DNA of 48,962 nucleotides, filler included, from Sphacelaria rigidula (taxonomy: Eukaryota), in NCBI GenBank assembly GCA_964200075.2. It is 3 parts of 3 records of this genome, joined end to end, with 100 filler letters (N's around TTAATTAATTAA, not from the genome) between each part and the next. Parts side by side here need not be neighbours in the genome. Positions count along the whole stretch, not along the records: positions 32,710 to 48,962 come from CAXNAA020001425.1; 2 more parts are not named here. One strand, written 5' to 3'. Positions 15,488-48,636 of this stretch are shown one piece after another. The notes under the pieces were generated by a model. That model had not been told where the DNA came from. It saw only the letters and a list, made by a program, of their open reading frames with translations, and made no database searches. Within the stretch, counting starts at the first letter, position 1, and every line of letters starts with the position of its first letter. The translations under genes and the position numbers were made by a program.

Positions 15488-15664
15488 CTGGGCCATGTGT
15501 CGTTGGAACCCGGCTTCGTCTCCCTCCCTCGCGCTCAAGAAGACGGCCACCTCCATCACGTCACGAACCAGCGTTCGTTCTCGCGTTGCCTCCGGCCCGT
15601 CACGCCCGAGGGGCGGCAGGGACTCGAACGAAGTTATCAGGATCTTCAGCTGCATCAGCTGCTT
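15488..15664 (-). CDS. RPN12: RPN12 internal exon (KQLMQLKILITSFESLPP...RDVMEVAVFLSAREGDEAGFQRHMAQ); upstream start exon not found
   Basis: cag| acceptor and |GTGCGC donor, 177 bp, phase 0/0; FxRxxAQ joins LKPYY of the next exon as in RPN12 homologues. Confidence 0.9.
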
Positions 15665-16255: not shown

Positions 16256-16355
16256 NNNNNNNNNNNNNNNNNNNNNNNNNNNNNNNNNNNNNNNNNNNNT
16301 TAATTAATTAANNNNNNNNNNNNNNNNNNNNNNNNNNNNNNNNNNNNNNNNNNNN
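16256..16355. other. Artificial scaffold linker (44 N + TTAATTAATTAA + 44 N)
   Basis: Exactly 100 bp with a six-frame stop spacer; identical block at 32610-32709. Confidence 0.95.
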
Positions 16356-26654: not shown

Positions 26655-28325
26655 ATGGAGAGTGGCGACATAGACGCGGAATCGACCGCGCCTTATGCGC
26701 CTCTCGGGGGTGCACCCAGCGGAAAGAACCGGACCGCCATACCCGACACGTGTCTGACGCAAGGTGCTAGACGTGGTCCGGAGGGAAGCAGCAACATCAC
26801 GATGTTGTCCACCGTACCCGCTGCGGCGGAGGTGTCTGACGCAGGCACAAATGGTTGCAGTAGCCAAGAATACCTCGAATATTCTTCGATGGGGGTGGTG
26901 GACCGACGGACCGGCAGATCGCACGGCATTGACGGTCCTGTGGCGAAACGTCGATGTGCGACACCAGGTTGCCCCACAATCCCCAAGTTCGCTGTTGAGG
27001 GCAGCGAGAACAGGCAATTTTGTGTTCGGCACAAAACTACTGGGATGGTAAACGTCTTCAGAAAAGTATGTGAGTTTGAAGGCTGCTCCAGATTCGCGAC
27101 GTACGGTATGAAGGGTGGTACTAGGATCGAGCAATTTTGCGCTCAACATGCCCCAGCAGGGATGGTACATCTCTATGCTAAGACTTGCGGCTGGCAAGAC
27201 TGCCGAGTAGTAGCGTCGTTTGGCCCAAGGGACAGCAAGAAGGCGGAGCGTTGTTCGAAACACAAGGTTGCCGGAATGTTGAACGTGTTGGTCAGGCGTT
27301 GCGCCCACCAAGGCTGTTATACCCAGCCGTCATACGGGGTTCCCGGCAGTCGAAAGGCTCTATTCTGCTCCAAGCACTCCGAAGACGGAATGGTCAGTGT
27401 GCTAGGTAAGGATTGCTTCCACGAAGGGTGCTCAAAGCGACGGTCATATGGAATGCCAGGAAGCAGGAAAGTGGAGTTTTGTGCGGAGCACGCTCCTGAC
27501 GGGATGGTCAACCTCGCCGCCGCTTGCATGCACGACGGCTGCTTTACGCGGCGGTTTTACGGAGTGGACGGCAGCCGAACACGCAAATTTTGCAAGGAGC
27601 ACGCTCTTGAAGGAATGGTGGCAATACCAAACAAGCGCAGTCCAGCAAATGGACAACACTGCCGCGCCCAAGACTGTAGTAGAAGCGCGTCTTACGGAAT
27701 GGCCGGCAGCAAGACATGGATATTTTGCAGTCATCACGCCACGGACGGCATGTTGAAGATGGTGAAGAAGCGATGCAGTAAAGAAGGGTGCGCCAAACAA
27801 GCGTTGTCTGGCGTTGTTGGTGCCGCCAAACAAGAAGAGTTCTGCGGCCAGCACAAGGAAGAGATGGTGAACGAGGCCTTCATCAAGTGCTCACATTCGA
27901 GCTGCACCAGTCGGACGATCACAAACACAAGAAACGTGCCGCTTTCCGCTGAACACACCTCCCAAGAAACGTTCGCCGTTGAGGGTGACTTCTCTCGGTC
28001 TCGAGGCGGTAGTTCCAGCAGTGCAAATGATGTTGATGAGCTGGAAAGCGATGCGATGTTCAGCACTGCGAACTCCACCGCCATCGCGCGGAACGGTGTT
28101 GAGGCCGCGGTTTTGAAGACAAGCGGCGGCTATAGCTGCACCCTGGAAGTCGGGCATGCCCCCAAGACCGATTTATTGCATTCTGAGCACGAACAATCAC
28201 CACGCCGTCACCCCGTCATCGGGGATCGTCACCTCTCATATCAACTACAGCAAAGGGTGAAGACTGACGTGGACGCTGGTCCCAGGGACACGATGAAAAT
28301 CTGCCACGTCACTGGTGTACCGTAG
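26655..28325 (+). CDS. EsV-1-7 cysteine-rich repeat protein (556 aa, intronless ORF)
   Basis: Eight complete plus one partial ~38-aa repeats of the form C-x4-C-x3-[AP]-x-[FY]-G-x2-G-x5-F-C-x2-H-x3-G-M-V, the EsV-1-7 repeat of phaeoviruses and brown algae; low-complexity N- and C-terminal flanks. Confidence 0.92.
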   Translation: MESGDIDAESTAPYAPLGGAPSGKNRTAIPDTCLTQGARRGPEGSSNITMLSTVPAAAEVSDAGTNGCSSQEYLEYSSMGVVDRRTGRSHGIDGPVAKRRCATPGCPTIPKFAVEGSENRQFCVRHKTTGMVNVFRKVCEFEGCSRFATYGMKGGTRIEQFCAQHAPAGMVHLYAKTCGWQDCRVVASFGPRDSKKAERCSKHKVAGMLNVLVRRCAHQGCYTQPSYGVPGSRKALFCSKHSEDGMVSVLGKDCFHEGCSKRRSYGMPGSRKVEFCAEHAPDGMVNLAAACMHDGCFTRRFYGVDGSRTRKFCKEHALEGMVAIPNKRSPANGQHCRAQDCSRSASYGMAGSKTWIFCSHHATDGMLKMVKKRCSKEGCAKQALSGVVGAAKQEEFCGQHKEEMVNEAFIKCSHSSCTSRTITNTRNVPLSAEHTSQETFAVEGDFSRSRGGSSSSANDVDELESDAMFSTANSTAIARNGVEAAVLKTSGGYSCTLEVGHAPKTDLLHSEHEQSPRRHPVIGDRHLSYQLQQRVKTDVDAGPRDTMKICHVTGVP

Positions 28326-30386: not shown

Positions 30387-32135
30387 ATCCGCCAATTCCA
30401 CGACGGTATGCAGGCTCGCGTACGCATGGGCGACGGGGAGCTCTCACAGTGCTTTGAAGTCACACAGGGACTGCGACAAGGATGTGTACTGTCTCCCCNN
30501 NNNNNNNNCTCTCTCAGTGTTTTGTAGTCACACAGGTATTGTGACAAGGATGTGTACTGTCTCCCCTGCTGTTCAACATCTTCGCGGCAGTGCTCGAGAT
30601 AGTCCTCGTGCGAGTCAGCGAGGATGATACCATCATGAAGGACATGGTATATCTCGACGAGGAGACGAGGAGGGGGGCGGAGACACCGCTGAAACGTGTA
30701 CGGAGAGCGGTGTGGGGAATGCTATATGCCGACGATGTTGGCATCACCTTGAGATCCCCCGGCGGGCTGGTGAGGATGATGACCATCATAGTAGACGTGT
30801 TTGGGGCCTTTGGACTGACCGTATCGGAGATGAAGACAGAGACTCTCTTGATGCGAGTGCCGAGGCAAGCACCAAAGAACGGGGAGTCACCGACACCATC
30901 TCCCCCACCGCTGATCATCGAAGCATCGGGCCAGAAACACGCCCAGAAAAGCAGTTTTCGATACTTGGGCAGCCTCTTCAACGAAGAGGGCGAACTCAAG
31001 CAAGAAATCAAGAATTGGAGCAGAGCAGCGTGGGCGTGCGTCAGGAAGTTTTCCCGGGAGCTCTTTGACCCACCGAAAGCACCCTGGAGACTCATGGTCC
31101 GACTGCTGAAAGCGGAGGCGATGGAGCCCTTACTATACGGATGCATGACGTGGGCTCCACGCCGCCAACACTACGACTTGCTGAGAAAGGTGCACTACCG
31201 GCTCCTCCTGCGAGTCATCGGGTACCGCCGAGTGCGCGGCACATACCGACAGCTGTCGTATGCACAGGCCCTCAAGAAGATCGGATGCCAAAGTGCGGAA
31301 GCCATCGTCCGGCAACGACGACTGCTGTTCGCGGGAGCCCTGGCTAGACGACCGGACGGACGATTACGGAAGCGAATAGCATTCGGAACACTAGTCGGGG
31401 GGGAGGATCCAGGACCGGGGTGCCCGGAACAAAACTAGCTGAAGTGCCTGAGGGACGATCTCCATGCTTTCGGAGCCACAGACGGCTCTACGGATGACAA
31501 CCGCCAGACATTCAGAATTGACCGCGCCCTATGGACCTCAGGGGCAAATGAGGAGAGGGGTTGCCGTGGCAAGCGGGAGTGCTGCAAGGAGCGGAGAGGT
31601 TCATGACCTCATGGCACAGAAATGAAGAGGAGGCCAGCCGACTGCGTGCGATTGGACGGGAGACCAACGAAGCCCAGATAGCACAGCAATAACGACGGTC
31701 CAGAGAAGGGGGGGGGGTGGAGGGTGAAACCCCCCGATGAGGGGTGTGGTTATGTCATGCAGTGTTTGTCTTGATACACCTGGTACATATGCTTGTACGT
31801 ATGGCTGTCCCTCGAGAGGTCGAAAGATGGAATCTTGAGATTCTTAGTTCTTTGGTTGGCGGTACTTGGGACCTCGAGTCTCACCCGTAGTCGGACCCCA
31901 TGTTCATTTCTACTTTGCGTCGCGCGTCGAGTTGGAAAGCCGGGTGTCACCCCCTGAAGTCCGAATGGCCACCTGCGGCACCGGATCTTCTGAGGTCAGC
32001 CATATGTAACCTCCTTCCCCTTTGTTATTTATCCCTGTTTTGCTTGTACGAGTATCGCGTTTTGTGAGTTTTAATCTGGGTCTATGTTTTCTTCTTCTTT
32101 TTTGCTAGCCTGTGACCACGGAAGGCGTCCGCATC
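30387..32135 (+). mobile_element. 5'-truncated, inactive non-LTR retrotransposon (RTE-like LINE): reverse transcriptase C-terminal half plus 3' UTR
   Basis: RT motifs [28 protein letters not shown], LLYGCxTW; premature TAG at 31436-31438 and a frameshift near 31560; coding remnant ends near 31692; T-rich tail near 32085-32104. 3' boundary approximate. Confidence 0.9.
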
Positions 32136-32609: not shown

Positions 32610-32709
32610 NNNNNNNNNNNNNNNNNNNNNNNNNNNNNNNNNNNNNNNNNNNNTTAATTAATTAANNNNNNNNNNNNNNNNNNNNNNNNNNNNNNNNNNN
32701 NNNNNNNNN
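32610..32709. other. Artificial scaffold linker (44 N + TTAATTAATTAA + 44 N)
   Basis: Identical structure to 16256-16355. Confidence 0.95.
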
Positions 32710-33027: not shown

Positions 33028-33107
33028 ATAGACATGGCCTCCGCGGCGGCAGTTGCCTCATCCAGGAGTGACGCGTTCGACATGTCCATGCCCGTTAGCT
33101 CAGCGAC
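33028..33107 (-). CDS. GLDC: Glycine dehydrogenase (decarboxylating), glycine cleavage P protein, exon 6 (VAELTGMDMSNASLLDEATAAAEAMS); remainder of the gene not in window
   Basis: aag| acceptor, AT|GTGAGT donor; NASLLDEATAAAEAM is the conserved P-protein motif. Confidence 0.95.
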
Positions 33108-33606
33108 CTTTGTTGACACATCAAGTTCCATCAAAATATCATCAGCGACAGTTCCCGGAGGCAAATACTTTTCGATGAAGAGCAAGTTGCAGGCATTTTT
33201 CTGCGGTGCGGGAAATGGCATCCGCCAAAACCATTTCACACGCTAAATCGGTTCATGAAAGTCTGCGTCACACGAAACTCTCATATTTCTGAGATGACAC
33301 ACCCTCCTACGACCATGGTCACGCTACGGCAGAGGCACACGGCTCCTCGAGAACACTCGAGGCAAACATTGTGTGTAGCAATTTCACAGACACGTTCACC
33401 CCCCCCCCCTTTTCATCTACTCATCATCATGACTATGTCATGTATCATCATGAGTACACCCTCCCCACCGCCTGTGCTCCGTCTCGAAATTAATGTGTGG
33501 GCGTCATATGATCAAGGCAGGCGAAAAATGAGTAGACTCCCCCCCCCTCCACTCCCCACCATCCCTCCACTGACTCGTATCCCCACCGACCAGCACCAAC
33601 ACTGAC

Positions 33607-33768
33607 CATGGTCTGGAAGTTGAGAAGGGACTGCAGACGCCCCTGCGAGATCTCAGCTTGGTAGGGGGTGTAAGCGGTGTACCAGCCGGGGTTCTCGAGC
33701 ATGTTGCGAAGGATCACGGGTGGAGTGGTCGTCTCGTAGTACCCCATGCCAATGAAGTTCTTCATCAC
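33607..33768 (-). CDS. GLDC: Glycine cleavage P protein, exon 5 ([11 protein letters not shown]...[30 protein letters not shown])
   Basis: cag| acceptor, |GTCAGT donor, 162 bp; [17 protein letters not shown] is diagnostic of GcvP/GLDC. Confidence 0.97.
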
Positions 33769-34541
33769 CTGCGGAGGGCATCCATCCATTTCATTCATCC
33801 ATCAGCAGCAAGGTAAGAGAAGGGGTTTCTTCGTATACTAAAAAAAAGTATCTGCCCCACAATTCCCAAAGTGAGGGACAACCCTTCGTTCGGTCTGAAT
33901 AGTCACAAAAAATACTTGCAACACATGCTGCGCGCATCAGAATCCTCCGTTAGATTTCCTACTTTTGGGCCATTTGAGAATATTTTCCACTCTACGAGTG
34001 GAAAATGTCGCCGCCACTTGTCCTCGAGATACTACACGGTACTTCACCCATGACGTCTACCGCAGGGGACAGTCCGGATTGCTGGGTTCCAAGGTGTTGG
34101 AAGACCATTTTTCATATAACACGCATTCGGGGATTGTCATTTTGAAAAAAAAATCGAGGGACGGGGGAAGCCGAAAAGCAAACGAATTTCTTCTCAGATG
34201 TGTACGAATGAAGAGCGAGCGGCTGGAAGGAAGTACAGACAAGTTTCGAGTAAAAATACATCAAGCGCAGATACGAAGATGGAAGGTCGGTGGCGACTCA
34301 TGATCCGCTTGGAAGGGGACATATGACTTGCTTCGGAAACTGGAAAAAGACAGCAGTCACATCTTCTTGGACAAGTGTATCAATCACACGTCAGAGTCAA
34401 GGAGACTCAATTACAGCCCATACTGCTCGAGACAGACTCTCAACTTCGGACTTCGGTTGTGGATTCATTAAAATCATGTCTAATTACCCACATTTTCTCC
34501 CTCTCCCTCCCCTCCCTCCCCCCGCTTCCTCGCCATCCTAC

Positions 34542-34616
34542 CTTGTTCTTATCAGCGATTGCACGAAGCTTCGCGAGGGCTTCGCTCTCGGATAACGCCT
34601 CCTCCAAATCCAGAGG
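34542..34616 (-). CDS. GLDC: Glycine cleavage P protein, exon 4 (PLDLEEALSESEALAKLRAIADKNK)
   Basis: cag| acceptor, |GTAGGA donor, 75 bp, phase 0/0; conserved GcvP N-terminal segment. Confidence 0.93.
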
Positions 34617-34943
34617 CTGTTGGTACAACAGCGACGACAACAGAGCGGGATAAATAGGAGACAGCGTCACGTGACAGAAAACAGCGTTCCCACCGCCCGT
34701 CGGAGGGGATCGGTACTGCACTTTAAATCCACGCAAGGGAAAGTACAGACCAGAGCAAGAAGGCATCGGCGATACTGTTCGGACGGTCAGCACTACTACG
34801 TTCATCTGATTGGCGGCAACGTGGGTAGATCGCGTGCAGTGATCGTTACTTTACAATATCCCTGAAATACACACGCAAATGCAAGAATCTAGATGCTGAG
34901 CATGAGCGCGACGATGCACATCTGAGACATGACTCGCACAAAC

Positions 34944-35066
34944 CTTTTCGAGGCGAATGCTGTGCGGAACGGTTCTGTCGACAAGGTCGTCGAGCGACTT
35001 GACCCCGACATCCTTCATCATCACTTCGACATCCGCATCACTGGGGCCGATGTGCCTGCGCGCGAA
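34944..35066 (-). CDS. GLDC: Glycine cleavage P protein, exon 3 ([41 protein letters not shown])
   Basis: tag| acceptor, |GTTTGT donor, 123 bp; FxRRHIGP...SLDDLxxxTVPxxIR is the conserved start of the mature P protein. Confidence 0.95.
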
Positions 35067-36568
35067 CTATCACGAGTAGGGGGAAAAGTGGCAACGATGG
35101 AAACACAAGTCAGTAGCCGTCATTCTGACGAGGGACAGGAACAACGCTCCGCAGTGCGGTCGATTGTGTTCCAACAGTAACGAGCGCAGGAGGGGTGCGG
35201 GATGTTGACCATTTCAGATCTTCGTGAGTTTGACCACTTCTGAAAATTCGAGCGGCGTCCGGTACAGAATCCACGGTTGGGATAGGCAGAATGACGCCCA
35301 CCGACCCCCACTTGTTTGTAGAAGCAAGCGGGAAAACGGAGGTGACGGACCCCGGGGGTTGCAGCTGTCTGCTGAGAAATATGCGGCTTGTATTGTGCCG
35401 CCTATAGAGTCCAAACGTTAACGTAACCAACGGTTCACAACATTATAACTGTATGTGCAACCATTTCAACCAGAGCAGAAAAATGCGGCCCGGTTTTCGG
35501 GGTCTTAGTGCGATCTTCCATTCGGCATGGGTGCTGCTACTCCATGGTTGAACGGCGGTAATATTCGACGGCAGGTACAGTGGCACGGCAATGTGTAAAT
35601 GTCAAGGAGTGGTGTGCAGTGCCGCCAAGACTGAGCAGTTCCGGTGTGGATGATCGTGTTGTGTCAAACCCTTGGACCGCGATGCGGGTAGCCCATCCGG
35701 ATGACGACACTTCACTCAACTGAGATTGATGCCGATTCAGCAGGCGACCTACCGGGCCAAAGGGTTCAGCAGCACACAAAATGCGGTCGAATACAAGGCC
35801 CGTCATCATACAGACGCTGGACGCTGGATGGCACTTGACTAAAGTGCCGGAGTTGACCGCAGTTCAGCGTCAACATCCAATGGTTGCCGGGTCTTCAGAC
35901 ATTGGTCACTGACTCACAATCGACGCCTGCATTTCTCATGGATGAAGACGACGGTCACGAGAGACAACACCCCCTCCTCTCTAGACAAAAGAATCACCAT
36001 CTGTCAGTGGAGAGTGTCAACCGAAAGTCGGCGACATGATTTCGACAGCTGTCCTCGCCACACACAAGCTACTGCTAATACTGCGTATAGTGACTGGCGA
36101 CATCGCTTGGCACACGTCGTGCGAGAGAAAATCCGCCGCGAAAACGCACCACTTACCGAGAATAACGCCACCTGCAGACACGTTCCTCCATGTATTAAAA
36201 CACAGTAGTACATCGTCTGCCTGTGGTACGTCTGTGGATTATGTGCTCGTACCGAAACATTCCCGAAAGCAATGATCGAGATGAGAATCACCCCACTTTT
36301 CCGTTTCCGCTCATAATGTGTAGAGAGCATGGAAATTTGTCGCTCCTGCTCCCTGATATTTGTTGCTCGCGAGCAAATGACACGCTGCATCTACGTCGAG
36401 TTTGACGCGAGACCGCACGGATCAACCGTGCATGGAGATCAGGTACATCCGTATTTTTGGAAATGATACAACAGACGGTGTGCGATGAGGGTGGTAGTCA
36501 GTCGCCTCGACTCTGGATCCTTATCCGGTATCCTTGCCCATGTGACCGTGGTTGACAAAACAACTTAC

Positions 36569-36664
36569 CGTGTCTTTCGGCGCAAAAATCTCCTCCACAG
36601 AAGCCGAAAGAGGTCTCGCAATCCCGGCGGGTGCTCGCTTGCGCAACGAAGTTTGGAGCACGGC
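36569..36664 (-). CDS. GLDC: Glycine cleavage P protein, exon 2 (AVLQTSLRKRAPAGIARPLSASVEEIFAPKDT)
   Basis: cag| acceptor, |GTAAGT donor, 96 bp; joins as [15 protein letters not shown]; Arg/Ala/Ser-rich presequence-like segment. Confidence 0.85.
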
Positions 36665-37582
36665 CTGCTCGACGCCAACGTGGACAACGTTCACGTAGGA
36701 CATTTCGGATACTCGCAAGATACGGCACCCGAAGTTGGGGTGAAGAAAAAAACTAATACTGTACAGTACTGTAGTGGGTGACTACTGTAACTGGGATATC
36801 ATGGCTGCACATACATACGTCAGGTGCGCGCGGCTAGAAAAAACAGTACTGTGAGATCAAACAAAGTCGACCATACGACCTCTTGCCCCGTTTCTCCATC
36901 AGGATTCCTGTTCTGGGTTCGGGGGGAGGGGCGACACGTCCGTAGCACGTTGCGCATGCAGTGAGCGAGCCTATTCTCTAAACTAGAGTAGACTTGAGCA
37001 CGGAGAAAACTCGGTTCATATTTGGACATTGTTCCAAATGTCCGTGATGACGGCGACAGAGAAAAGCTGGATCACACAGACCAGCCCACCTCTATCGACT
37101 GCCGGAGACTACTGAACACAATGATGGGTTGGGCATAATACAAGCTAGAGAGACAGCGCAAAATATCAATACCAACATGGGGGTCGAAATATTTCATGTA
37201 CTGTGCTCGCGGGGTTCCCTGATACGCACATCACAGCACTGTAGTACAGCCCGAACCCTTGTATCCAAGGAACATTTCTTCCGTTGAGCACGAGCATGAA
37301 ACACGTACGCGTGCTGAAAACACATGAACTCAATTTGATACCGCTTGTTCTTGTTTCGCGGTCTATTTCCATTCCTATACAAGAACCCGCTCTCCGCATG
37401 CCTACTCACGAATCTGAACACAGCCCATAGTTCCTCGAGGGAATAAATAACTCAGGGGCTTACAGAGACCTACTGCATCATGTAACATTGCAACCTCCGT
37501 AACATTCATCGGTGTTGACCGATTATGGCGTTCATGTTACTGGGGGTGTCATCGGTTACAGCTTACATGACAGGTCACTTAC

Positions 37583-37615
37583 CCTGCGGGCGGACAGCCT
37601 GCCTGATAGGATCAT
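37583..37615 (-). CDS. GLDC: Glycine cleavage P protein, exon 1 (MILSGRLSARR), start of mitochondrial presequence
   Basis: aacATG start, 11 codons, consensus donor AGG|GTAAGT, phase 0; basic, acid-free peptide as expected for mitochondrial targeting. Confidence 0.75.
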
Positions 37616-38258
37616 GTTCTCTTGTAGGACGAAGAAAAGAAAACGACGGGGCTGGTTTCAGATACTCCGCACTTGATAGGTGAGGAGATGAAGATGCAGA
37701 TTCAGAGACTCGGCGATGTTGCCCTCTTTGCGCTTGTAGACGAGGACGACAGCGGCAGGTGCGGTACGCAGTTGAGTGTGGGAAAGAAAGGGAAGCCTTC
37801 TTGGGTTGTGTGCGTGTGATGCGATGCCTCAAAGAATCAAATTGTCGATCGTCATCACAGTTTGGCGGCGTTTTCTTGGTTGAGGGGACAGGGGGATTTT
37901 TTATTATATGGTTTTTGTATAGCACTTTTCACTTGATTTATATAGAGGGTTACTTTAGTGTCACTTCGGAATACTTCCAGCAATTTTGGCGTATTTTCAC
38001 TTGATTAATGACTGGGACAGGTGTTTCACTGACTTTTGCTAGCGGCGGCCCATTCTTTATTTCCCCGCGTTTTTGCGCTGCATTTTTCCCCGTCGCTGAC
38101 CTGACAGTCTCGTGTTCCTGTACGCAAGTAGGTTGTAGTGACAGCAAATATCGATGTACGAGTGACCGGCTGTGTCTACGTGTGCTGTGAGCATCGGCAG
38201 ATAGGACGTACTACAAGAGAGGATTCCAAACGGAGCTGAACATCATAAGGGCGTCACC
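37616..38258. promoter_or_regulatory. Candidate bidirectional promoter and 5' UTRs between GLDC and the plus-strand gene starting at 38259
   Basis: 643 bp between two divergent ATGs, no recognisable interspersed repeat, AT-rich core near 37895-38010. Confidence 0.5.
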
Positions 38259-38285
38259 ATGGCGTCCATCGCTCCGCCGAGAGGT
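38259..38285 (+). CDS. Probable first exon (MASIAPPRG) of the LrgAB/PLGG1-like transporter gene; alternative donor at 38400 would give a 47-aa exon
   Basis: Strong start context gtcaccATGG; donors GGT|GTGAGT (38286) and AAG|GTATGG (38400) are both phase 0, matching the exon at 46339. Linkage across the ~8 kb intron is inferred. Confidence 0.5.
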
Positions 38286-41200
38286 GTGAGTGCGCACTCG
38301 GCCATTGCTGCTGTCGCCATCACCGTCCTCATCAACCGCAGGAAAGACATCAAATTGATCCCCAACTTGTTCTCTCGCAATGGGGGCAAGACCAGAAAGG
38401 TATGGGCTGGCGTGACGTCGTACTTTGTACGCAAGTAGCGCCATATGGAAGGTCGGTGCAAGTCGCATATGGCTGTTGTTGGGGCAGCTTAGGGGGGTTG
38501 AGAATGTTGTCATGTTCACGGCTGTTGACGTGTTCATGTTGCCGATTGTGTTGCATAGCGGTTTTTCTACCCCTCCCCTGCCAGTGTTGCTACACAGCAG
38601 CTGCTGCACAGCATCAGCTTTTGGTTCATCACCATCAAAGTTGACCCTCCACAAGGGACGACACCGGCAACTGGCAACCCCCGTTTTGTCGGTATCTATC
38701 GTCGAGCGAATGCCATTGGTTGATTTTGTTACACGTCAACCGATGGAATGAAAGCGCAGCAAACATCGCGAGTATACGATGAGCGTAGCTCATGTTGCTG
38801 TCTGTGGCGACTCGTGCATGCAAACATTCTCAGTAGCATGACCGCAACAACAGCAGTGGCTGTTTTTCATGTTTTCTCCCTGTTGTCTTCAACTCATGTT
38901 TTTGAATTTCGACCTCGGAAATAAATATATGCGTACATCATTCGCAAAAACCAGGCGTACACGTACGTGGTGCGTGGGCTTCCCACAAAACGCCCGCCGC
39001 ACCACGATGCACTCTAATGCACCGAACGCAGCCTCGTGTGTCCCTCATGTTGAATCTATTTTTTACCTTTCATGTGAGCTGGCGACCTTGCACTTTGGCA
39101 ATTTTGTGTACGTAATCGGTTCTTTTGAAGCGCGACTGCATGGTGTTTTCGTGAGAGCGACAAATGAGATGATTAGTGTTGAGTCTTGATGGTTTGTCCT
39201 GAGTGCATGTTATGGCGCACAAGTTTACATCCCTTGGCTGTTTGTATTCATGATACAAAACGTGCACTTAAATGCCCCCGCCGTCAACAGCTAGTACTGT
39301 ACAAAGTACACAAGGCACCAATGCGCATGGAATAGCAGATGCCCATCGTTGATATGTTCAGTTATCGTAACTCGCTGTCTTATCCGTGTAGTTCGGTACA
39401 CTCCGGTATTGCAACTCATCTTCTCGCCACCTCGCCAACAGCAAGCTGGTACGAGTACCTCTTCTGGTGGTATCTGCTGGTTTAAAACTGTATGTCCATC
39501 CTACTGTATGCACCGACCTTTGCCCTTTATGCCTTCCCCCCCCAAATATATATATATGCGTCTTGTTCAAAATGGGGTCATTTTGGAGGGGAAACCCCGC
39601 CGTGGCGTTACAATTACTTGATTTTACTGCAGCGTGCAAGACCGAAAAACAAGAACGCCTAGGTAATGCGAATCAAGCGAAAGGATGGAGAGCAAAGGTC
39701 TCACTATGTACTGCGCGATAAGATACTGTTCTCTCTATTTTTGATCGCCTGAATTTCAGCACAGCACAGTGTTGCGCCAGAAGAGAAGAACCATTTTCGG
39801 AACAGAATCTGACCACTTCTCCCTCTAGCTCGCCCTGCTGCAGTGCACAGCACCAGATATAGCGACGAGAAACTGTTGGCTATAGTTCGCATAACATATG
39901 ACCTAAGTGTTGGCGCCTTGTAGCGGCTACAACGCGCTTAGGGCCGTGCGTCATGAACTGCGCACTTCTACGGACTACACGCCGATCGGTACAGTACCGA
40001 TGGTCATGATCCAGAAAGGGTCACCGGTGTCAGTTTGCCACCACATCGGCCGCCCAGCCGCTCAAGATGTCGAAGTTAGTGGACCTGCGTGTGCATATAT
40101 GCAGTCACCTCTAGTGCACGAACTCTGGACTGCAGGATAGCCGCTTTGAGGGCACATAGACGTCATTCCCCGAAATCGCTTGTGGCCATGTTCATTATTC
40201 GTGCGGGGCCCAATCGTGCGGGCGCTTGGCGGCTATGTTGCCTGTGTTGTATCCGACTCGGGCGTAAAGTTTCATGAAGGAACGCGAAGTCGCAGGCGAG
40301 AAATCCACAACGAAAGTTGCTCTGAAAATTGGGACTTTACAGTAGGAAAGTACCCATATAAACACAAGATGGGGTTTCGCCCTGTTTACGCCGCATATCA
40401 GATGCGGTTACGCAGTAGTATTACGGTACGGATACTGTCTACTGTACTGTCAAATGCAGTACAGACAGTACATCGCATCAGCAATTATACTGCGCTTTAT
40501 GATGGTCGAGACGGAGTTTTCATTTTCAAAAGCTACCAGCTGCGCCGCCAGGCATGCATGCAGACGATTATGCCGCTCTCATTTGTGCTGAAAGCAATTG
40601 AGATGCTCCTTTTCAGGCGGATTGCACATTCCATATACACTCTTGGCGTGGTGACGAGCGAGAACGCGAACCGTGGCCGCCAACTATCGGCGTACCATGG
40701 GGCCCGCAAGGCACCCGTATCGAGCAACACCATGCACACCACCGAACGCGGGACATGATCACATTTCGGCCTGCAACTTGCGCCGACGATCTAGCCTAAA
40801 CATCGCTTGTCAGATATGCTGCGTGTTGGGCCGTAGGTCCCTCCCAAGGGGCTCCTCCCTCTTGTGGATTATACCTACCTTGGGATGCTCCAAGCTGATA
40901 TTTTATACGATGACTCTTGTACGCAAAAATCCACATATATTTTCCTTTTTTTTGGTGCAACACTAAACAGTATAGACAACATCACCAAAACGAGCGCGAG
41001 CACCGTTTGAGCTACATGGAATTATGTCCCGATCTCTGCGCCCTGAACACCTCATTTTTCAGCCTGTGTATGTAACGGCCCCCGACGACCTAGGGCTCAC
41101 CTCCCACAGATGGGGGCATTTCGAAACCGCCCCTCAGCCAGAATCGAGGACCCACCCAATACCAGGGCGGAAAGTGTGGCATGGGACATGTCCTTCATCA

Positions 41201-42671
41201 CTGTGATGCAGCACAAACACACTCATGTTTTGTCTCGTGTGCTGTAGCTGTCGCTGCGCTGTGGTGAAGACGGTTTGATCTCCGCTGGGACTGCGTGAGT
41301 TGCTTTATATTGTCATCGCGTTCGTCTCTATGAAAAGGAATGTTGTCGGCGCACAGTGCTCTCTACACACTGCTGAAAGCTTCATGGTATGTCGGCTGTT
41401 TCATCTCGAGTGAAACGAACAAGGCGCTTGCCAAACACGCCATTTCTGTGCTGTAGTTGTCGCTGTGCTGTTGTGCATCTAAACATTCTACGACGAACAC
41501 GGTGCGATGTGCGCTGAAGAATGCCTGAACAGCTGTACTGATGCATGCCGTGGTTTGGTCTGCACAAAATCGGGGTGGGATCAGAGTGCTGTTCAAACAA
41601 AGAAAGGTTAAAACAATCGTCACGTGACGGCTGTGCAATTGTCTGTTGCTTCTCCTCTGGTACTTCAGTCAGGGTCGGATGCAGTGATAGCAAAAGACAC
41701 GCAAGGTGGGTGCGTGAACGTTGGGGCAAACAAACTGAGCCAGCACGAAGCTGCCGTATCCTCGGTGATTGATAGTAGCTTTTCTCTTTCTCGCAGCGGC
41801 GCAATGTGTGGGCCAATCAGAGCTATTCGATCACTCAATTCCCACTCGATTATCTAATGTGATTGATCAAAGGTCGCCGTATTTTGGTATATTGAGAGGC
41901 TCTGGATTGGTCGGAAAATATTGGCAGTCAAAATCCCTGCCCCTATCTGTGGGCCCTGTGCCAAACCTAGAGCGTCATGCATACGTGAGTGCACCCGCTT
42001 TCCAGAGACAGCATCATGTTTCCCTATTGAGCTCTGTGTAGCAAGAAATCCATGATGTTTCTATTCCCCTCTCGTGTTGCGTGGGAACGTTGGGATCTGC
42101 CTGCAGTAGTCCGAGTGCTCGTTTGCTGCCCGGGAACAACTTATAAGGTCAGCAGTATTTTTTTTAGTTCGTGTCGCGTTTGTGTGAATTTTGCTGGGTC
42201 CTTTTTTATTTTATTTTTTTGCATTTTGCCCTATTTTGAGTAGTTACCTGTGAGCACGGAAGGCGTCCGCATTAGATGCTCAGTACGGAGTACTACGCAT
42301 ATATCGACACGCTTTTTCATTTGCGAACACGACAACAACTACTACTACTACTACTTACTACTACTACTATCGCAAACAAGATCCACTGTCTGTATATGAG
42401 TATCGCTAGAAAAATGTCCATACTGGAACCAAGATGCAAAAGAGAGATCACTCTCAACCCGACGCAACCCGTGTGTGCTCGACACCACTTCCAAAAACGT
42501 AGGGTCTACAACCAAAGCATGGGCACAGTCCCAACAGTAGCCAGTCTTCGGTGGGAGCATGGTGACCTCAGTTTTATGAGTGAAAGCATGCCACTGCTTT
42601 CTCTGGTCAGAGCGTTTCAACGCTCGGCTCGATTTTTTTTCCCGAAGAGCACACCTGCCCAGACAACAAAG

Positions 42672-43156
42672 CAACGTCGTGTTCTGTAGGGGACGGTTAT
42701 GTTCTGTAGGGTATGCAATTCCTTACAGAACTTACAGAAATATCTGGTACCGTTATGAAATTCCATGAGTCTGACAGGAATTACATAAATTCGTCGGGTA
42801 CGATACCGGAGGCTTACAGAGAACCGAACCGGCAATCGGGTATTTCTTCAAGGGCATACCCGTGCTCTGGGTACGGGCATACATTATGTACAAAAATCAC
42901 AGAAACTGTCGGACAGGGTATGGAGGCTGCACAGAAAACCGTACTCGCAACCTGGTATCTTATCAAGAGCATACCCGTGCCCCCCGGTAAGGGTACGGAA
43001 GGCTTACAGGACTCACAGAACTAGTGGGTAAGGGTGTAAAGTCTTCTAGACCTTACAGAATTTGTCGGGTACAGGTATGAAAGTGTCGGGTACGGTACAC
43101 ACCTGGGAAAATACCCCGGGTATACAGAAATCCATACCCTACAGAACACAACCTTG
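42672..43156. mobile_element. hAT-like MITE with internal cttacagaa/gggtac subrepeats
   Basis: TIR caacgtcgtgttctgtaggg/ccctacagaacacaaccttg, same family as 12643-12894. Confidence 0.65.
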
Positions 43157-44668
43157 AAAACAAGTGTTTCCGTCAATCACGATCGAGTATGATCGGTGGT
43201 CAGGATACGGTATATACCTTGTCGTTTGCCGCCTCTTCAGAATACAGTGGCCAGTGATATGTTCCCTTGGCGCGAGAATACGTCGACTATACTTGACTTT
43301 CCTAATTTTTAAGTAGACTAGTAGTGTTCCTTCTCTCCTATTTCATGCTGCAAGAGGTTGGGCGGGGACACAAGCAGGACGGTGCTTACCGCAGCTGCAA
43401 AGTTGTGAGTTAATCGAGCAGAGCTGTCCTGCGCCCTGTGCTGCCCTCGTAGGTCGAGGTATATTTGGTCGTCTCTCTGCTTTTCTTGTGATTCACTTGT
43501 TGGCTCCTACCTTACAGGCCGTACGAAATTATGATAAAAGCCATGAAGACGAGGGCTAGGAAACACGCCCAAGTTGTCATTTTTAACCGCGCAGTTTTCC
43601 GGAAGGATATTGGGATTTCCGGATCTGGACATTAGGAAGAGCCTGGTCCGAGAACTACATTGGCACACAATCTAGATTTGCTTCCCTGCGGCGCGTCGAG
43701 CGGGCTGCAGAGGAGGTGAAGGATTTTCCTCCCATCAAACCTTTTCCTCGAAAAGTTTGAAGTGTGACGGGTAACGCGATGCGATGGACCATTGTTGTAC
43801 GTCCGGTGCGGAGTAAACAGCAGAGCAGCTGAGCGTGCAGTACACTACCGGGTGACAGAATGTTCAGTTTCGTCTCCCACCTCCGCAGCATCGTCAAGTC
43901 AGTGCAGCCAGTAGTACAAGCAGTGAATCAAGATGATGCATGCAGTGATGTGCAGTACGGTGTAGTGTTGCCTCATGTACAACACGGAATTGTCCATTAA
44001 GTTTTTTCTTCCTTCTTTGCACCCTTTCAGAACTTCCCCTTACTCGGGACAAGAAAAAAAACATCGGTCGAATTTTTCAAGACCTTTGTCACGCACCAAG
44101 ATGAGCGTGCTCTCACCTGAAGGGGTGCTCACACCTTGGTCGTGAAAAACAAAATGGCTGACATACCTCGTAGCGTTCCTGGAAACTTATTTGGAGTAAC
44201 GCCAACCCCTAATCCTAATCCCGGCCAAGTCATACGAGAACCCTCGGGCAAGGGGGGTGCAAAGTTTGCTCTAGGAAAAGAGGGCGTTGACAACCTCAAA
44301 TTGGCGCCCGCCGACCTGGACAGAAAACACGTTCCGGGCAACTTACTGTAGCAGCACTTGGGATTGTCAGCCCTTCTTGAGATCTGAGTATTAGTGTTTA
44401 CTCTAAAATCAAGTAGTAGCCGTTCTTTACGACCAATGCGTAAGGTCTACTGCTCACACGACCATCCTTGAACTGGACGGCAATGATCAACATCTCACGT
44501 GGTACGTTCTGAGAACCGGACACGATTTTTGCATTACCGTTGACATGAACGGCACAAAAAAAAATCACTTTTCCACTTTTCCTCCGCGTACTAGGATAGA
44601 TTTTAGAGCCTGCTACCATTTTAGCGATCATATGCTGCTGCAGTGACCACTCCTCTACTGTCTACAAA

Positions 44669-44910
44669 GCCGGTCGCCCTGGTGGCTTGGTTGGTGTAGG
44701 TTACCTTGAAACATTCCGGCGGTTTGTGGGTTCGAGTCTCAGTGAATTCACACTATATGTTTTTTTTCTCACATCATGCCCAACAGTGGAGAACAACAAT
44801 ATCGTGAGAACACAGTTCAAACAGTTCGACGTCCCGGTCGACGAGGGGAAGAGACCGCTTAACCCTTCTCGCGATGAAGAGTACGGCAAGAACCGCTGAG
44901 GGAGGGTAGA
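44669..44910 (+). mobile_element. tRNA-derived SINE-like element
   Basis: Pol III box A-like tggcttggttgg (44683-44694) and box B-like ggttcgagtct (44729-44739) at tRNA spacing, unrelated body, followed by (TA)n; does not form a full cloverleaf by eye. Confidence 0.55.
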
Positions 44911-45589
44911 GCACTGGAACAATATATATATATATATATATATGTATGTACAGAAACTCCTGTGATGGCCTTCCTCCGGTATGACCCCAGTTGATGCGCC
45001 AACATACACCGGGGGGTGCAGAGTGGCATCCAGAATATATGCGATGACAACACACACATACCAGATCACATACTATTGCAGGGACCTATTTTTCGTTCTC
45101 TCCCAGAAGCGGTACGAAAACGTATTGCCTACTGTAGCGTGTTTATTTCTCGTCTCTCACTTTACCCCGTTCGCTCGCTCGTTCTTCATTACCACAGCAG
45201 GATTTCATTCGTGGCGGATCTGTCACTGTGCGGTCGTCAATCATCAATGATGCTCATTACTTGCAGTTGAAACCGAGCACAAGTCTCACACGAGCATATT
45301 TAAACGGGTCCAGAAACATGGGTACGTCAAGGAGACACGTCAAACGTTGGTCATGTGGGCAGCCTTTGAAGTTCATGCCGCCCAACCCCATCCCCCGCCC
45401 AGCTCAGTGCTGCGTTTCGAAAGTGATGCGCGGGGTCGTACAACTAAGGCAAGCGAAAAATGATACCCCCCCCCCCCCCCCCCCCCCCCCCCTCTTCCGC
45501 ACCAGCCACCACCCAAACAAAAAAGAAANNNNNNNNNNAAGTGGGGCTCGGTACGATCAACCAAAGAAAAGAAAAAAATGGTCCCCCCC

Positions 45590-47250
45590 CCCCCCCCCCC
45601 GTCTCTCTCTGGTGAGACACCCATCAGACAGTGTATAAGCCATGGCTGTCTCCGGAAGTGGCGAGACCAAAAAATAGAGCAACTCATTGTAGGCTGTCAA
45701 CCAAATGCACGAAAATCAGTAGGCTTCGGGTCGAACAATCTTAGCAGCCTGCAGCTCACCCTTCATGCGACTCGCCGAACAGACTACGGCGCTTCGCGCT
45801 TGGTGGGCTGAGGGCAAGCCTGGTCCCGCGAAAACCCGGCGTGCTCCGTCACGGCTTTGTAGGGATGCGGGGTCAATCGTCTCATGACTATGGCATGCGT
45901 GATCATGAGTACACCCCTCTCATCTGCTCGTCTCGAAAGGGATCCGTGGTCAATGGTCAAACGATCAAGGCAAGCAACAAATGAGTACGCCTCCCTCCCC
46001 CCCACCCCCTCTCATCCATGAGGAGCAGGAACAGTGCTCTGTCTAGAAAGGGATGCGTAGTCAAAAGTAAAACAACTGAGGCAAGCAACAGATGAGGACG
46101 CCCCCCCACCCCCACCCCCACCCCCGTCATCCAGGGGAAATTCCGGCGCACTCCGTCCCGACTTTATAGGGATGTGAGGTGTACGGCCATATGACTACGG
46201 CATGCAAGATCATGAGTACACCCCCCCTCATCCCCCGTCTCTCGTGTTTCCACTCTCTACGCCCACCGTACCGAAAACATGGTCACCATCATTTCAATGG
46301 AATGTGACATCAATCTGAACGTGGAATATGACCATCAGATGCTCATCGGGACGGCGGGCATTTTCGTGTTCGAGCAAATTGTGAGGAAGGCGTTGCAACG
46401 CGCGGGGCTGAAGCTGCCGTCGTCTCTCGTGTCCATGGTCGTCGCCTTCCTGCTTCTCAAGGTACAGTATGTGTTTTGGAAGTGTCATCACGCAGCGTGA
46501 GATAACTCAGGACCGTTCAACGTTCGTGTTTGATCCTGAACTATACTGTACTGTACTATAAAAAAATACTCATGTTGAGGCGCGTTCATGAGCGTGCTGG
46601 GCGAGCTCACTGACACACCGTGCGCTCGTGTGTCGGAGGCGTTTTTTAAGTTGGTACCAAGAGCGCTGAAATGAAATCCGGTGCCTACAGCAACACGTCC
46701 AAGTGACTTGACTCTATCATGAAAGAAGTGGCTCGAAACAACCCTCTATTCCTCATTTTAGGCTGGCGTCGGTTGACAACAAAAACAAACTGCGTGAGCT
46801 GGGCAACCAGGTGACCGTTTTGTTTTTACGCTTGCGTTTTTTTTGCGGTAACCATGATGGTGGTCGAGCTAGATCATCTTGTTCGAGGTGGTGAACCCGA
46901 TCTCCGCGCACACGGAGGCTCGCACTACGTGGTCGTTGGACACCCGTGAGGCAGTTTGTAACCCGTTGCTCGTCTCTTGAAGTGACGACACGGAAAATGA
47001 AACGGCTCATCGTAGGCTGTGATCCATATGCAAGATAATCAGGACGCTTTGGGTCGAACAATCTTCGCAGGATGCACCTCATCCTTCATGTGACTCGCCG
47101 AACACATCACGTCGCTTCGCGCTTGGTGATTGAGTGCGAGCCTGGCCCGGGGAAAACCCGGCGTGCTCCGTCCCTGCTTTGTAGGGTTGCGAGGTCAACG
47201 GTCTCATGACTGCCGCATGCAAGATCATGAGTAACCCCTCCCCCCCCCGC
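45590..47250. repeat. Copies of an abundant interspersed repeat family flanking the 46339 exon (45590-46250 and 46780-47250)
   Basis: Shared core ggtctcatgactatggcatgcaagatcatgagtacaccc; other copies at 1-95, 3715-4110, 13340-13435, 14822-14905 (reverse) and 33410-33550. Confidence 0.8.
46339..46461 (+). CDS. LrgAB-family membrane transporter (PLGG1-like), exon (MLIGTAGIFVFEQIVRKALQRAGLKLPSSLVSMVVAFLLLK)
   Basis: cag| acceptor, |GTACAG donor, 123 bp; KLPSSLVSM resembles the KFPSALFGM segment of plant PLGG1 LrgA-like domain. Confidence 0.8.
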
Positions 47251-47530
47251 GCGCGCCTCAGGAGTCATGAGATAGCTCGTCCCCAGAAAGACACCCGAAC
47301 CTGACAGTCTTTTTTCAAGCGAAACTAGCGCCGATAGTGTAGACACACGAGCGTCGAGCGCCTGCTGTCACGAAGCAAGTTACTGCATCGCACCCCCGGC
47401 CCCGGCCGGCTGTAGCTTGCTCGCGTGCACAGCCTGATCTAGCGTCCCCTCGCTATACCGTTAAACCTGCTTGCGTCGACGTCGTCGTCGTCGTCGTAAT
47501 GGTCATTTGTCGTCGTTGCTGTTCATCCAG

Positions 47531-47668
47531 GGCTACGAAGCCTCGAGCGGGAAAGAAGATGCCGACAAGGTGGCCAACTACTTCGGACCCGCGGTGGAGC
47601 ACCTCGGAAAGTGGATGCCGCTTTACCTCGCCCCTCCCCTCATAGTCCTACCCAACGCGCTGGGCGAG
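47531..47668 (+). CDS. PLGG1-like transporter exon (GYEASSGKEDADKVANYFGPAVEHLGKWMPLYLAPPLIVLPNALGE)
   Basis: cag| acceptor, |GTGACT donor, 138 bp; FxPA...WMPLYLAPPLIVLP matches the PLGG1/LrgA motif FEPA...WLPLFYVPSLVVLP. Confidence 0.85.
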
Positions 47669-47720
47669 GTGACTCGAGTCGAGTTTTGCCGCAGTTTGCA
47701 TATCATGTTCAAGTGTTGTA

Positions 47721-47806
47721 CCGCCTTCGCTCCGCAGTTTTGCCGCCTTCGCTCCGCAGTTCTGCCGCCTTCGCTCCGCAGTTCTGCCGCCTTTGCCCCG
47801 CAGTTA
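47721..47806. repeat. 22-bp tandem repeat, four copies
   Basis: ccgccttcgctccgcagttytg repeated directly after the 47531-47668 exon. Confidence 0.9.
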
Positions 47807-48165
47807 TACCCCTGGGAGTGATGGGCGCGCGCGGGGGTGGTAGAGAAATGCTTCTGGGTGTGCGATGAATAAGTAGCGCGTCTGTTGGGTAAGAGCCGTT
47901 TTCAATGTGCTCTATTTTTCATACTGTTCAATCCATTTATAAACGAATGAAACTAGATAAAAAGTGGATGGAAACGGAAGAAAAAAAATCACGAAGAACA
48001 TGAAATTAAATGTTTATAGTTTCGTCCGTTTTCATCCAAACTTTCATACTTTTCGTCCATTATTTGTGAATGGATGAAAACGTTTTCAGAATAAAGCCCG
48101 TCAAATGATGGCCCTATCAGAAGAATGTTCATCCGTTTCTTGTTTGTGAAACGCACAATCATCCC

Positions 48166-48207
<42 letters not shown>

Positions 48208-48537
48208 ACGCTTTTTCAAATTGTGGAGCCCATCCTTTGGTTATGCGGAGGCAGATAGTTCGCGAAAAAATTAAACAAAATTTCGTAGTGACGTTTTTCT
48301 GGGGTCCCAGAACGGAGACAACTTCGAAAAACGACTTCGATCCCGTCGGACCCCCGAAAAACGGTGAAGAGCTCGAGAAGTACAAAAAACATCGCCCGTA
48401 GAAAGTTGCGTAATGGTACATAGCATATTTACGCAAAGTTTCAGGATTTAACTCCTAATGACAGCGTAAAAGTTTTTTTTCAAGTTATTTAATTCGTGCG
48501 TTTCTTCGTGCGGGATCCTGTATGAAACACCAAACAG

Positions 48538-48636
48538 GTACAAGGAGCATCAATGTGGGCTAGGCTGGGAGGTGTACACGTGGCGGGATGGTTGCTGTCC
48601 ATCCTCTCTACGGCTGCCGTCGCGAAGGCTGCCAAG
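48538..48636 (+). CDS. PLGG1-like transporter exon (VQGASMWARLGGVHVAGWLLSILSTAAVAKAAK); gene continues beyond window
   Basis: cag| acceptor, |GTAATC donor, 99 bp, phase 0/0; hydrophobic helix with GW motif as in PLGG1 (AGGWLASL). Confidence 0.8.

What the first reader, a model, noticed from the sequence alone, without database searches (positions are those of the whole stretch)
33028..48636. Head-to-head photorespiration gene pair: glycine decarboxylase P protein and a PLGG1-like glycolate/glycerate transporter
Seen: GLDC starts at 37615 on the minus strand; a strong ATG exon starts 643 bp away at 38259 on the plus strand and is phase-compatible with three LrgA/PLGG1-like exons at 46339-48636; all lie on one contig apart from a 10-N gap. 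Established: GLDC is the CO2-releasing step of photorespiration and plant PLGG1 (LrgAB family) exports glycolate and imports glycerate. Inference: two non-homologous genes of one pathway share a bidirectional promoter, a compact co-regulated C2-cycle module in a brown alga. I know of no description of such a pair, but cannot search.
Basis: partly seen in the sequence, partly recalled or inferred. Interest (0 to 1): 0.8.

Follow-up and report, generated by a model that had tools for sequence, protein, structure and literature searches.

The report
Glycine-cleavage gene paired with orphan transporter
In a brown seaweed, the gene for the enzyme that releases CO2 in photorespiration sits back-to-back with the gene for an unstudied relative of the plant glycolate transporter, a pairing also kept in related seaweeds, which likely marks this transporter as a carrier of photorespiration intermediates on a membrane other than the chloroplast's inner envelope.

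Summary
The pair is real. GLDC-P (minus, ATG 37615) and an LrgA-LrgB fusion transporter (plus, ATG 38259) diverge, with transcript ends at most 377 nt apart. Spliced contigs join 38399 to 46339 across the 10-N gap, so exon 1 is the long form. The two genes are linked in 8 Ectocarpales assemblies and lie on different contigs in Chrysoparadoxa; kelps and Fucales could not be tested.

Two corrections. First, close divergent pairs are the norm in Ectocarpus (61.7% of genes, median 409 bp) and are not co-expressed on average. Co-regulation was not tested here. Second, this transporter is not the plastid PLGG1 orthologue. A second paralogue on another contig groups with plant PLGG1, whereas the GLDC-linked one belongs to a separate, leaderless, less hydrophobic clade.

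For a functional link: the same genome holds a second head-to-head glycine-cleavage pair, GDC-T with a likely GDC-H first exon, and a same-pathway head-to-head pair (M1PDH3/M1Pase1) is already described in brown algae. Best reading: a conserved glycine-cleavage module that points to a likely mitochondrial or peroxisomal carrier of a two-carbon intermediate. Location, substrate and co-expression are unshown.

The parts
33028..37615 (-). GLDC (glycine decarboxylase P protein), first six coding exons; the gene runs off the contig
   Evidence: five introns confirmed by spliced contigs; the translation matches P0024
37583..37615 (-). GLDC exon 1 (coding): start of an Arg-rich, acid-poor, presumed mitochondrial presequence
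   Evidence: 7 R/K and 1 D/E in the first 35 residues; targeting inferred
37616..37794 (-). GLDC 5' UTR, minimum extent
   Evidence: spliced contigs reach 37793/37794; contigs cannot fix the true start
37795..38171 (.). spacer of at most 377 nt between the two transcript ends (45% G+C); candidate shared promoter
37926..38009 (+). 16-nt direct repeat, two copies 68 nt apart, found only here in G000
   Evidence: 0 of 300 shuffles, but 11 of 124 genomic tiles have as good a repeat; role unknown
38172..38258 (+). transporter 5' UTR, minimum extent; shares a 13-of-14-nt word (38207-38220) with the GLDC 5' UTR (37631-37618)
   Evidence: (1 of 1000 shuffles, chosen after the fact); 6 genome matches against 6 for the control pattern
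38259..38399 (+). transporter exon 1, 47 aa: short hydrophobic helix followed by a basic cluster; no plastid leader
   Evidence: helix 10-24 of the orthologue modelled at pLDDT 96-98
38400..46338 (+). 7,939-nt intron 1 with high-copy repeats and the 10-N gap (45529-45538); no other spliced gene seen in it
   Evidence: tables 2 and 5
46339..46461 (+). transporter exon 2 (LrgA-like part)
47531..47668 (+). transporter exon 3 (W-M-P-L-Y-L-A-P-P segment)
48538..48636 (+). transporter exon 4; the gene runs off the contig before the LrgB domain
   Evidence: the loose end of spliced contigs at 47670 reads into this exon

Best explanation
GLDC-P and a leaderless LrgA-LrgB fusion transporter are transcribed back-to-back from a spacer of at most 377 nt and stay linked in Ectocarpales, and the pairing is likely kept because the transporter likely carries a two-carbon photorespiration intermediate (glycolate/glyoxylate, possibly glycine) toward glycine decarboxylase across a membrane other than the plastid inner envelope, most likely mitochondrial or peroxisomal. 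Shown: layout, splicing, linkage, a separate clade, no plastid leader, and a second GDC-T/H head-to-head arrangement (H from one exon only). Predicted: a fold of the NhaA/BASS type. Inferred: the plastid-type paralogue exports glycolate from the stroma while this paralogue handles a later membrane, and the shared spacer lets both genes be raised together when Rubisco oxygenation is high. My split on location, given a link: mitochondrion about 0.45, peroxisome about 0.3, plasma membrane or other about 0.25; the outer plastid membrane is scored as a rival.
For: Linkage in 8 Ectocarpales assemblies. Consecutive ids: CBJ30901.1/CBJ30902.1, CAB1114541.1/CAB1114540.1, g10965/g10966. Same genome: GDC-T (ATG 6575, PF01571) faces a minus-strand ATG exon 727 bp away whose last residues rank 1 of 167,365 windows against a profile of 27 bacterial GcvH N-termini (31.9, next 23.4), with an Arg-rich leader and a GTGAGC donor. 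Same-pathway head-to-head pairs exist in brown algae (M1PDH3/M1Pase1; bioRxiv 2024.02.19.579948). The family's only characterised eukaryotic role that I read of is photorespiratory transport (PMC8146403). Clade separate from plant and bipartite-leader proteins (SH-aLRT 98 and 97; the two brown algal paralogues rejected as one clade, p-AU 2e-6). Lowest helix hydrophobicity of the six groups compared (1.07 against 1.33-1.58), which by recalled trend fits post-translational organelle import. A P. tricornutum PLGG1 homologue has a mitochondrial prediction (PMC9546453), and a review argues that algae oxidising glycolate in mitochondria need such a carrier (PMC5948301).
Against: 61.7% of Ectocarpus genes lie in divergent pairs (median 409 bp) and these are not co-expressed. 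Brown algae have largely conserved macrosynteny (PMC12592211), and I have no background rate for how often a divergent pair survives between orders. All 8 linked assemblies are one order and 6 are one genus. In Chrysoparadoxa the two genes are on different contigs (55,418 and 39,780 bp). Nannochloropsis GDC subunit genes have non-adjacent ids (g260, g176, g1059, g9801; PMC6599299). No partner was recognised upstream of an SHMT gene (0.8 kb available) or an FMN_dh-family gene (about 1 kb) before their contig ends. The P/transporter and T/H spacers share no words above background. The protein is only 28% identical to a grass PLGG1 and differs in the conserved motif after R399 (SVMSSL against xITxPL-type), so its substrate may differ. 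Bacterial LrgAB-type proteins carry pyruvate (PMC5626966, start of abstract only). No location predictor was available.
Confidence: 0.55

Rival explanations
1. An ordinary divergent pair: the two genes share a short nucleosome-free spacer like most brown algal neighbours, are regulated independently, and stay together passively; the transporter moves some other carboxylate such as pyruvate.
For: Frequency, spacing and lack of co-expression of divergent pairs; conserved macrosynteny; not on one contig in Chrysoparadoxa; deep divergence from PLGG1; no shared spacer motif; no LrgAB within 5 kb of gcvP in 80 of 80 bacterial loci.
Against: With about 18,000 genes, the chance that GLDC's upstream neighbour is one of two LrgAB genes is of order 1 in 10,000 (my estimate; the family was picked after the fact and many windows were scanned). 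A second GDC pair (T/H) in the same genome shows that these genes are not placed at random.
Confidence: 0.25
2. The protein is a plastid glycolate/glycerate carrier after all, but of the outermost (chloroplast ER) or periplastid membrane of the four-membrane plastid, working in series with the bipartite-leader paralogue at the inner envelope.
For: Diatom triose-phosphate translocator paralogues are spread over these membranes, the outermost one having only a signal peptide (PMC5635587). The N-terminal hydrophobic helix could act as a signal anchor. The named members of the clade are from lineages with complex plastids (brown algae, Phaeothamnion, Chrysoparadoxa, Vaucheria, Heterococcus, Mallomonas, Cladocopium).
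Against: Low helix hydrophobicity is not what ER-inserted proteins usually show (trend recalled). The diatom paralogues arose by duplication of the symbiont gene, whereas this clade lies outside the plant plus red-lineage plastid clade. Most clade members are unnamed.
Confidence: 0.17
3. Assembly or gene-model artefact: the 38259 exon belongs to another gene, or the scaffold is misjoined at the 10-N gap.
For: The gap is flanked by poly-C and no listed DNA contig bridges it.
Against: The exon matches the N-terminus of full-length orthologues; spliced contigs join it to 46339; a DNA contig spans the junction with GLDC exons 1-2; the same linkage appears in other assemblies.
Confidence: 0.01

Closest known systems
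Plant PLGG1 / AtLrgB (plastid glycolate/glycerate translocator)
   Same: LrgA-LrgB fusion of about 500 aa with PF04172; 28% identical over 461 aa to Brachypodium PLGG1; shared W-x-P, HP and R-G...A-H-x-x-G-T-A motifs.
   Different: No transit or bipartite leader; an extra structured N-terminal helix; separate clade; lower hydrophobicity. The brown algal protein nearer to PLGG1 is the other paralogue (Choristocarpus CAM9125624.1, 36% to the same PLGG1, with a signal-plus-FAP leader; its match in G000 is on C24223).
M1PDH3/M1Pase1 head-to-head pair of the brown algal mannitol cycle
   Same: Two non-homologous genes adjacent and head-to-head in brown algae, about 500 bp apart in Ectocarpales (bioRxiv 2024.02.19.579948, passage).
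   Different: That pair is two enzymes of an established pathway; here one partner is a transporter of unknown substrate, and conservation is shown only for Ectocarpales plus this genome.
Ectocarpus divergent gene pairs with a shared nucleosome-depleted region
   Same: Spacing (at most 377 nt) is at the genome median of 409 bp (PMC7784034).
   Different: Those pairs are on average independently regulated; this pair may be an exception, untested.
Bacterial CidAB/LrgAB/PftAB carboxylate transporters and the gcvT-gcvH-gcvP operon
   Same: Same transporter family (PF04172); GDC genes are clustered in bacteria too (69 of 80 gcvP loci held a GcvH-like ORF).
   Different: The bacterial transporter is two genes and the operon is co-directional; no LrgAB gene lay within 5 kb of gcvP in 80 loci, mostly Pelagibacter and Gammaproteobacteria.

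Membership tests
PLGG1 (plastid glycolate/glycerate translocator) | Fused LrgA-like and LrgB domains in one multi-pass protein | tested here: met
   Orthologues of 496-515 aa carry PF04172 and align end to end with a grass PLGG1; helical multi-pass model at pLDDT 89. The window holds only the first 167 residues.
PLGG1 (plastid glycolate/glycerate translocator) | Plastid targeting leader (transit peptide, or signal peptide plus ASA-FAP in ochrophytes) | tested here: not met
   N-termini of the window exon and of orthologues lack an extension and the motif; the paralogue P0191 has it. By inspection; no predictor was run.
PLGG1 (plastid glycolate/glycerate translocator) | Orthology with plant PLGG1 | tested here: not met
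   Plant PLGG1 and bipartite-leader proteins group at 97; the GLDC-linked clade is apart at 98 (54 rows, quick LG+G4 tree; groups named after seeing the 122-row tree).
PLGG1 (plastid glycolate/glycerate translocator) | Transports glycolate and glycerate; knockout gives a photorespiratory phenotype | not testable with these tools
   Needs a liposome or complementation assay and a mutant.
Glycine decarboxylase P protein | GDC-P domain (PF02347) | tested here: met
   exon 5 is 94% identical to Ectocarpus GLDC.
Glycine decarboxylase P protein | PLP-binding C-terminal half present | tested here: inconclusive
   Off the contig and not found in G000; spliced contigs run on beyond exon 6.
Bidirectional (head-to-head) gene pair | Divergent orientation, 5' ends under 1 kb apart, no gene between | tested here: met
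   At most 377 nt between transcript contig ends; unbroken DNA contig across it.
Bidirectional (head-to-head) gene pair | One promoter drives both genes; co-expression | not tested
   Expression tables exist (PMC12629598), but the annotated files were too large to read and the gene ids could not be mapped.
Conserved same-pathway head-to-head pair (M1PDH3/M1Pase1 type) | Adjacency kept across brown algal orders | tested here: inconclusive
   Linked in this genome and in 8 Ectocarpales assemblies; for Laminariales, Fucales, Choristocarpus and Tribonema only one partner was retrieved. Orientation elsewhere is inferred from one truncated contig only.
Conserved same-pathway head-to-head pair (M1PDH3/M1Pase1 type) | Both products act in one pathway | tested here: inconclusive
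   Rests on family membership and on the second GDC-T/H pair; substrate unknown.

The most novel reading that the evidence does not exclude
Brown algae keep their glycine-cleavage genes as bidirectional two-gene modules (P with this transporter, T with H), and the transporter is the founding member of a leaderless LrgAB subfamily that moves glycine/serine or glycolate across the mitochondrial or peroxisomal membrane, a photorespiratory transport step whose carrier is still unidentified in plants (PMC8146403).
Probability: 0.2. Interest if true: 0.8.

Novelty: new variant of a known kind. Interest (0 to 1): 0.5.

Why it matters
The mitochondrial and peroxisomal carriers for glycine, serine and glycolate in photorespiration are unidentified (PMC8146403), and how glycolate crosses four plastid membranes in brown algae is open. 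Gene neighbourhood singles out one uncharacterised protein (Ectocarpus CBJ30902.1, 'conserved unknown protein') in a genetically tractable alga for a direct test. It also suggests mining conserved head-to-head partners of enzymes in brown algae as a way to assign orphan transporters. If the pair proves independently regulated, it is one of thousands of ordinary divergent pairs, and only the two-paralogue observation remains.

Tried and rejected
Short exon 1 (donor after 38285): rejected by the orthologue alignment and the spliced joint at 38399. No RNA holder was listed on record; X1, X2 and X8 are treated as RNA only because they show GT..AG joints that X5 lacks. Contig depth was not used to rank expression. 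Co-expression from published tables failed for lack of an id map; supplementary files 2, 5 and 10 of PMC12629598 could not be read and probably answer it. The metagenome scan for flanked relatives gave 1 locus of 1,685 bp from 596 candidates, uninformative. PDB sequence search: 0 hits. Foldseek: none at E <= 0.001. VIA-align's best rows (NhaP, SOS1, SbtA, ASBT, NapA, CitS; Z 10.6-12.0, rmsd 3.9-6.1 over 229-317 residues) are below the level trusted for helical proteins and give no substrate. Shared regulatory word: the UTR 14-mer is at control frequency genome-wide (6 against 6) and absent near the GDC-T start. The rest of GDC-H was not found; the one candidate (E 0.2) was spurious. Pfam, PDB and Atlas gave no hit for the 56-aa H exon. 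The sigma-70 scan is irrelevant to a eukaryote. Earlier scan findings: none. No complex prediction was sent, as no binding is claimed.
Full report
Setting. The window is three contigs joined by N44-TTAATTAATTAA-N44 linkers. G000 places them as C1423, C1424 and C1425, of 16,255, 16,254 and 16,253 bp, so they are neighbours by size only. The finding lies on C1425 (32710-48962). A named record, P0024 (CAM9243064.1, labelled Sphacelaria rigidula, contig 16,253 bp), has the sequence of the spliced GLDC product, which gives the likely species.

Observation. Six minus-strand exons from ATG 37615 encode 189 residues of GLDC-P. Four plus-strand exons from ATG 38259 tile the N-terminal third of six brown algal proteins of 506-515 aa (one 496) with PF04172, at 69-87% identity. 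Contigs of runs X1, X2 and X8 show all five GLDC introns and the joints 38399>46339 and 46461>47531; DNA run X5 shows none, and one of its contigs covers 35724-39583 without a difference. X1 and X8 are probably one data set, and their RNA status is inferred from the joints. The transcript contigs end at 37794 and 38172, so the starts are at most 377 nt apart. Both 3' halves are missing from G000.

Conservation. From cluster listings: consecutive ids in Ectocarpus siliculosus (CBJ30901.1/CBJ30902.1), Ectocarpus sp. CCAP 1310/34 (CAB1114541.1/CAB1114540.1) and Nemacystus (g10965/g10966). Equal contig length with accession offsets of 75, 76, 67 and 68 in Ectocarpus sp. 12, sp. 4, sp. 6 and Pylaiella, and 138 in a second sp. 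12 assembly; I read the constant offset as one gene step (inference). In that last assembly a 22,401-bp contig holds the transporter's N-terminal 251 aa and a middle piece of GLDC, which fits head-to-head. That makes 8 linked assemblies, all Ectocarpales. One was not linked on a contig: Chrysoparadoxa (55,418 and 39,780 bp). Four taxa had only fragments on different short contigs (Ectocarpus sp. 8, sp. 13, E. fasciculatus, Hapterophycus). Only one partner was retrieved for Cladosiphon, Scytosiphon, Undaria, Laminaria, Ascophyllum, Choristocarpus, Tribonema and Phaeothamnion. No flanking DNA of other algae was available, so orientation elsewhere is not shown directly.

The null. In Ectocarpus, 61.7% of genes flanking start-adjacent spacers are in divergent pairs, median 409 bp; pairs under 600 bp share a nucleosome-depleted region, but their transcript levels are uncorrelated (r 0.042 and 0.054; PMC7784034, passages). 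Short divergent spacers are common to all brown algae (bioRxiv 2024.02.19.579948, passages), and macrosynteny is largely conserved (PMC12592211, passages). The layout is therefore ordinary and says nothing by itself about co-regulation. The same preprint describes a same-pathway head-to-head pair, M1PDH3/M1Pase1, so the kind is known.

Which transporter? G000 has a second LrgB-family gene on C24223. Its exons are 47-87% identical to Choristocarpus CAM9125624.1, which has a signal peptide followed by FAP; its own 5' end is off the contig. In a 122-row FastTree (full-length rows of 400-660 aa, 8 rows dropped as near-redundant) and a 54-row IQ-TREE, that type groups with grass PLGG1 (named) at support 97. 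The GLDC-linked protein sits in another clade (98) with Phaeothamnion, Chrysoparadoxa, Vaucheria, Heterococcus-like, Mallomonas and many unnamed sequences. Holding the two brown algal paralogues together is rejected (p-AU 2e-6); groups were named after the first tree was seen. Identity to Brachypodium PLGG1 is 28% for the linked protein and 36% for the other. The linked clade has a 13-residue hydrophobic helix followed by basic residues instead of a leader, modelled at pLDDT 96-98, and the lowest mean helix hydrophobicity (1.07, n = 26; plant-like 1.35, n = 12; red or bipartite 1.33, n = 40; rows are related, so no valid p). The model (pLDDT 89) most resembles NhaA/BASS/SbtA/CitS-type carriers at Z 10.6-12.0, below the trusted level for helical proteins. 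So it may work like PLGG1 but is not its orthologue.

Is the link functional? While checking other pathway genes I found that GDC-T on C6371 (ATG 6575) faces a minus-strand ATG exon at 5847-5680, 727 bp away, with an Arg-rich leader, a GTGAGC donor and an end resembling the GcvH N-terminus. Against a profile from 27 distinct bacterial GcvH N-terminal 11-mers (from 80 gcvP loci) it ranks first of 167,365 windows in 124 kb of this genome, 31.9 against 23.4 for the next. Pfam, PDB and Atlas gave no hit for the exon and the rest of the gene is absent from G000, so the call rests on 11 residues plus context. If right, three GDC subunit genes fill three of four places in two head-to-head pairs, and the fourth is a member of a family known for photorespiratory transport. 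Against: no partner was recognised upstream of SHMT or an FMN_dh gene within 0.8-1 kb; the two spacers share no words above background; Nannochloropsis GDC ids are not adjacent (PMC6599299, passages); bacteria show no LrgAB near gcvP in 80 of 80 loci. Spacer features, a unique 16-nt repeat and a 14-nt word in both UTRs, were found after the fact and gave no sign of a wider regulon.

Mechanism. Likely: Rubisco oxygenation yields glycolate, which the bipartite-leader paralogue exports from the stroma; the leaderless paralogue moves glycolate, glyoxylate or glycine across a later membrane to GDC; the shared spacer couples the supply step to the decarboxylation step. Support for a mitochondrial site is indirect: hydrophobicity (trend recalled), a mitochondrial prediction for a diatom homologue not shown to be of this clade (PMC9546453, passage), and a review's argument (PMC5948301, passages). 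An outer plastid membrane, by analogy with diatom TPT1 (PMC5635587, passages), is the main alternative site. GDC also serves one-carbon metabolism (established knowledge), so 'photorespiratory' is itself an inference. Odds: linked and non-plastid 0.55, unrelated neighbour 0.25, outer plastid membrane 0.17, artefact 0.01.

Literature. Ten full-text searches listed no paper on this pair, and the four accession terms gave 0 papers; most subscription papers are not held. Also seen: PMC4368765 (passages: two moss and two diatom LrgB paralogues), PMC3644879 (one passage: GDC higher in surface kelp blades), PMC8146403 (passages), PMC12629598 (passages and searchable supplements). PMC10112911, PMC6374913 and PMC13759113 were searched in supplements only, without usable hits. 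The original PLGG1 paper was not held and is cited through the review. Unreadable supplements of PMC12629598 and of the preprint may settle co-expression and synteny.

Verdict. A real, conserved and apparently undescribed pair of a known kind. Its value lies in pointing to an uncharacterised, non-plastid-type paralogue of PLGG1 as a candidate photorespiratory carrier. Interest 0.5.

Noticed in passing
L035 (G000:C6371) 5680-5847 minus and 6575-7000 plus: Second head-to-head glycine-cleavage pair: GDC-T exon 1 faces a likely GDC-H exon 1, ATGs 727 bp apart. Conservation in other algae not checked.
   Followed up: partly
L006 (G000:C24223) 2463-5600 minus: Second LrgAB-fusion gene, matching the bipartite-leader, plastid-type paralogue; the better candidate for brown algal PLGG1. 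Its 5' end is off the contig.
   Followed up: partly
window 16256-16355 and 32610-32709: N44-TTAATTAATTAA-N44 linkers: the window is three size-ranked contigs, so neighbourhood across these points means nothing.
   Followed up: yes
window 37926-38009: 16-nt direct repeat in the spacer, unique in G000.
   Followed up: partly
window 37618-37631 and 38207-38220: Both 5' UTRs carry the same 14-nt word (13 of 14) in sense orientation; at control frequency genome-wide.
   Followed up: partly
window 38413-38419: A palindromic CRE-like TGACGTC word 14 nt inside transporter intron 1; TGACGT occurs 26 times in the window, so it may be chance (motif name recalled).
   Followed up: no
window 45766-46256 and 46748-47238: Very high-copy dispersed repeat in transporter introns, with depth far above single-copy DNA and also high in the RNA-like runs.
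   Followed up: no
window 13742-14029 and 15335-15736, minus: Exons of a PCI-domain gene (PF10075 on the first; looks like proteasome lid Rpn12/PSMD8 by recall).
   Followed up: no
window 26652-28325, plus: Uninterrupted 557-aa frame with eight EsV-1-7 cysteine-rich repeats (PF19114).
   Followed up: no
window 30545-31438, plus: Reverse transcriptase fragment of a LINE-like element next to a 10-N gap (PF00078).
   Followed up: no
P0187, P0193, P0201, P0207, P0319: A further unnamed LrgAB clade also starts with a short hydrophobic anchor rather than a plastid leader.
   Followed up: no
P0061, P0109: Tribonema minus has two GLDC-P genes on different contigs.
   Followed up: no
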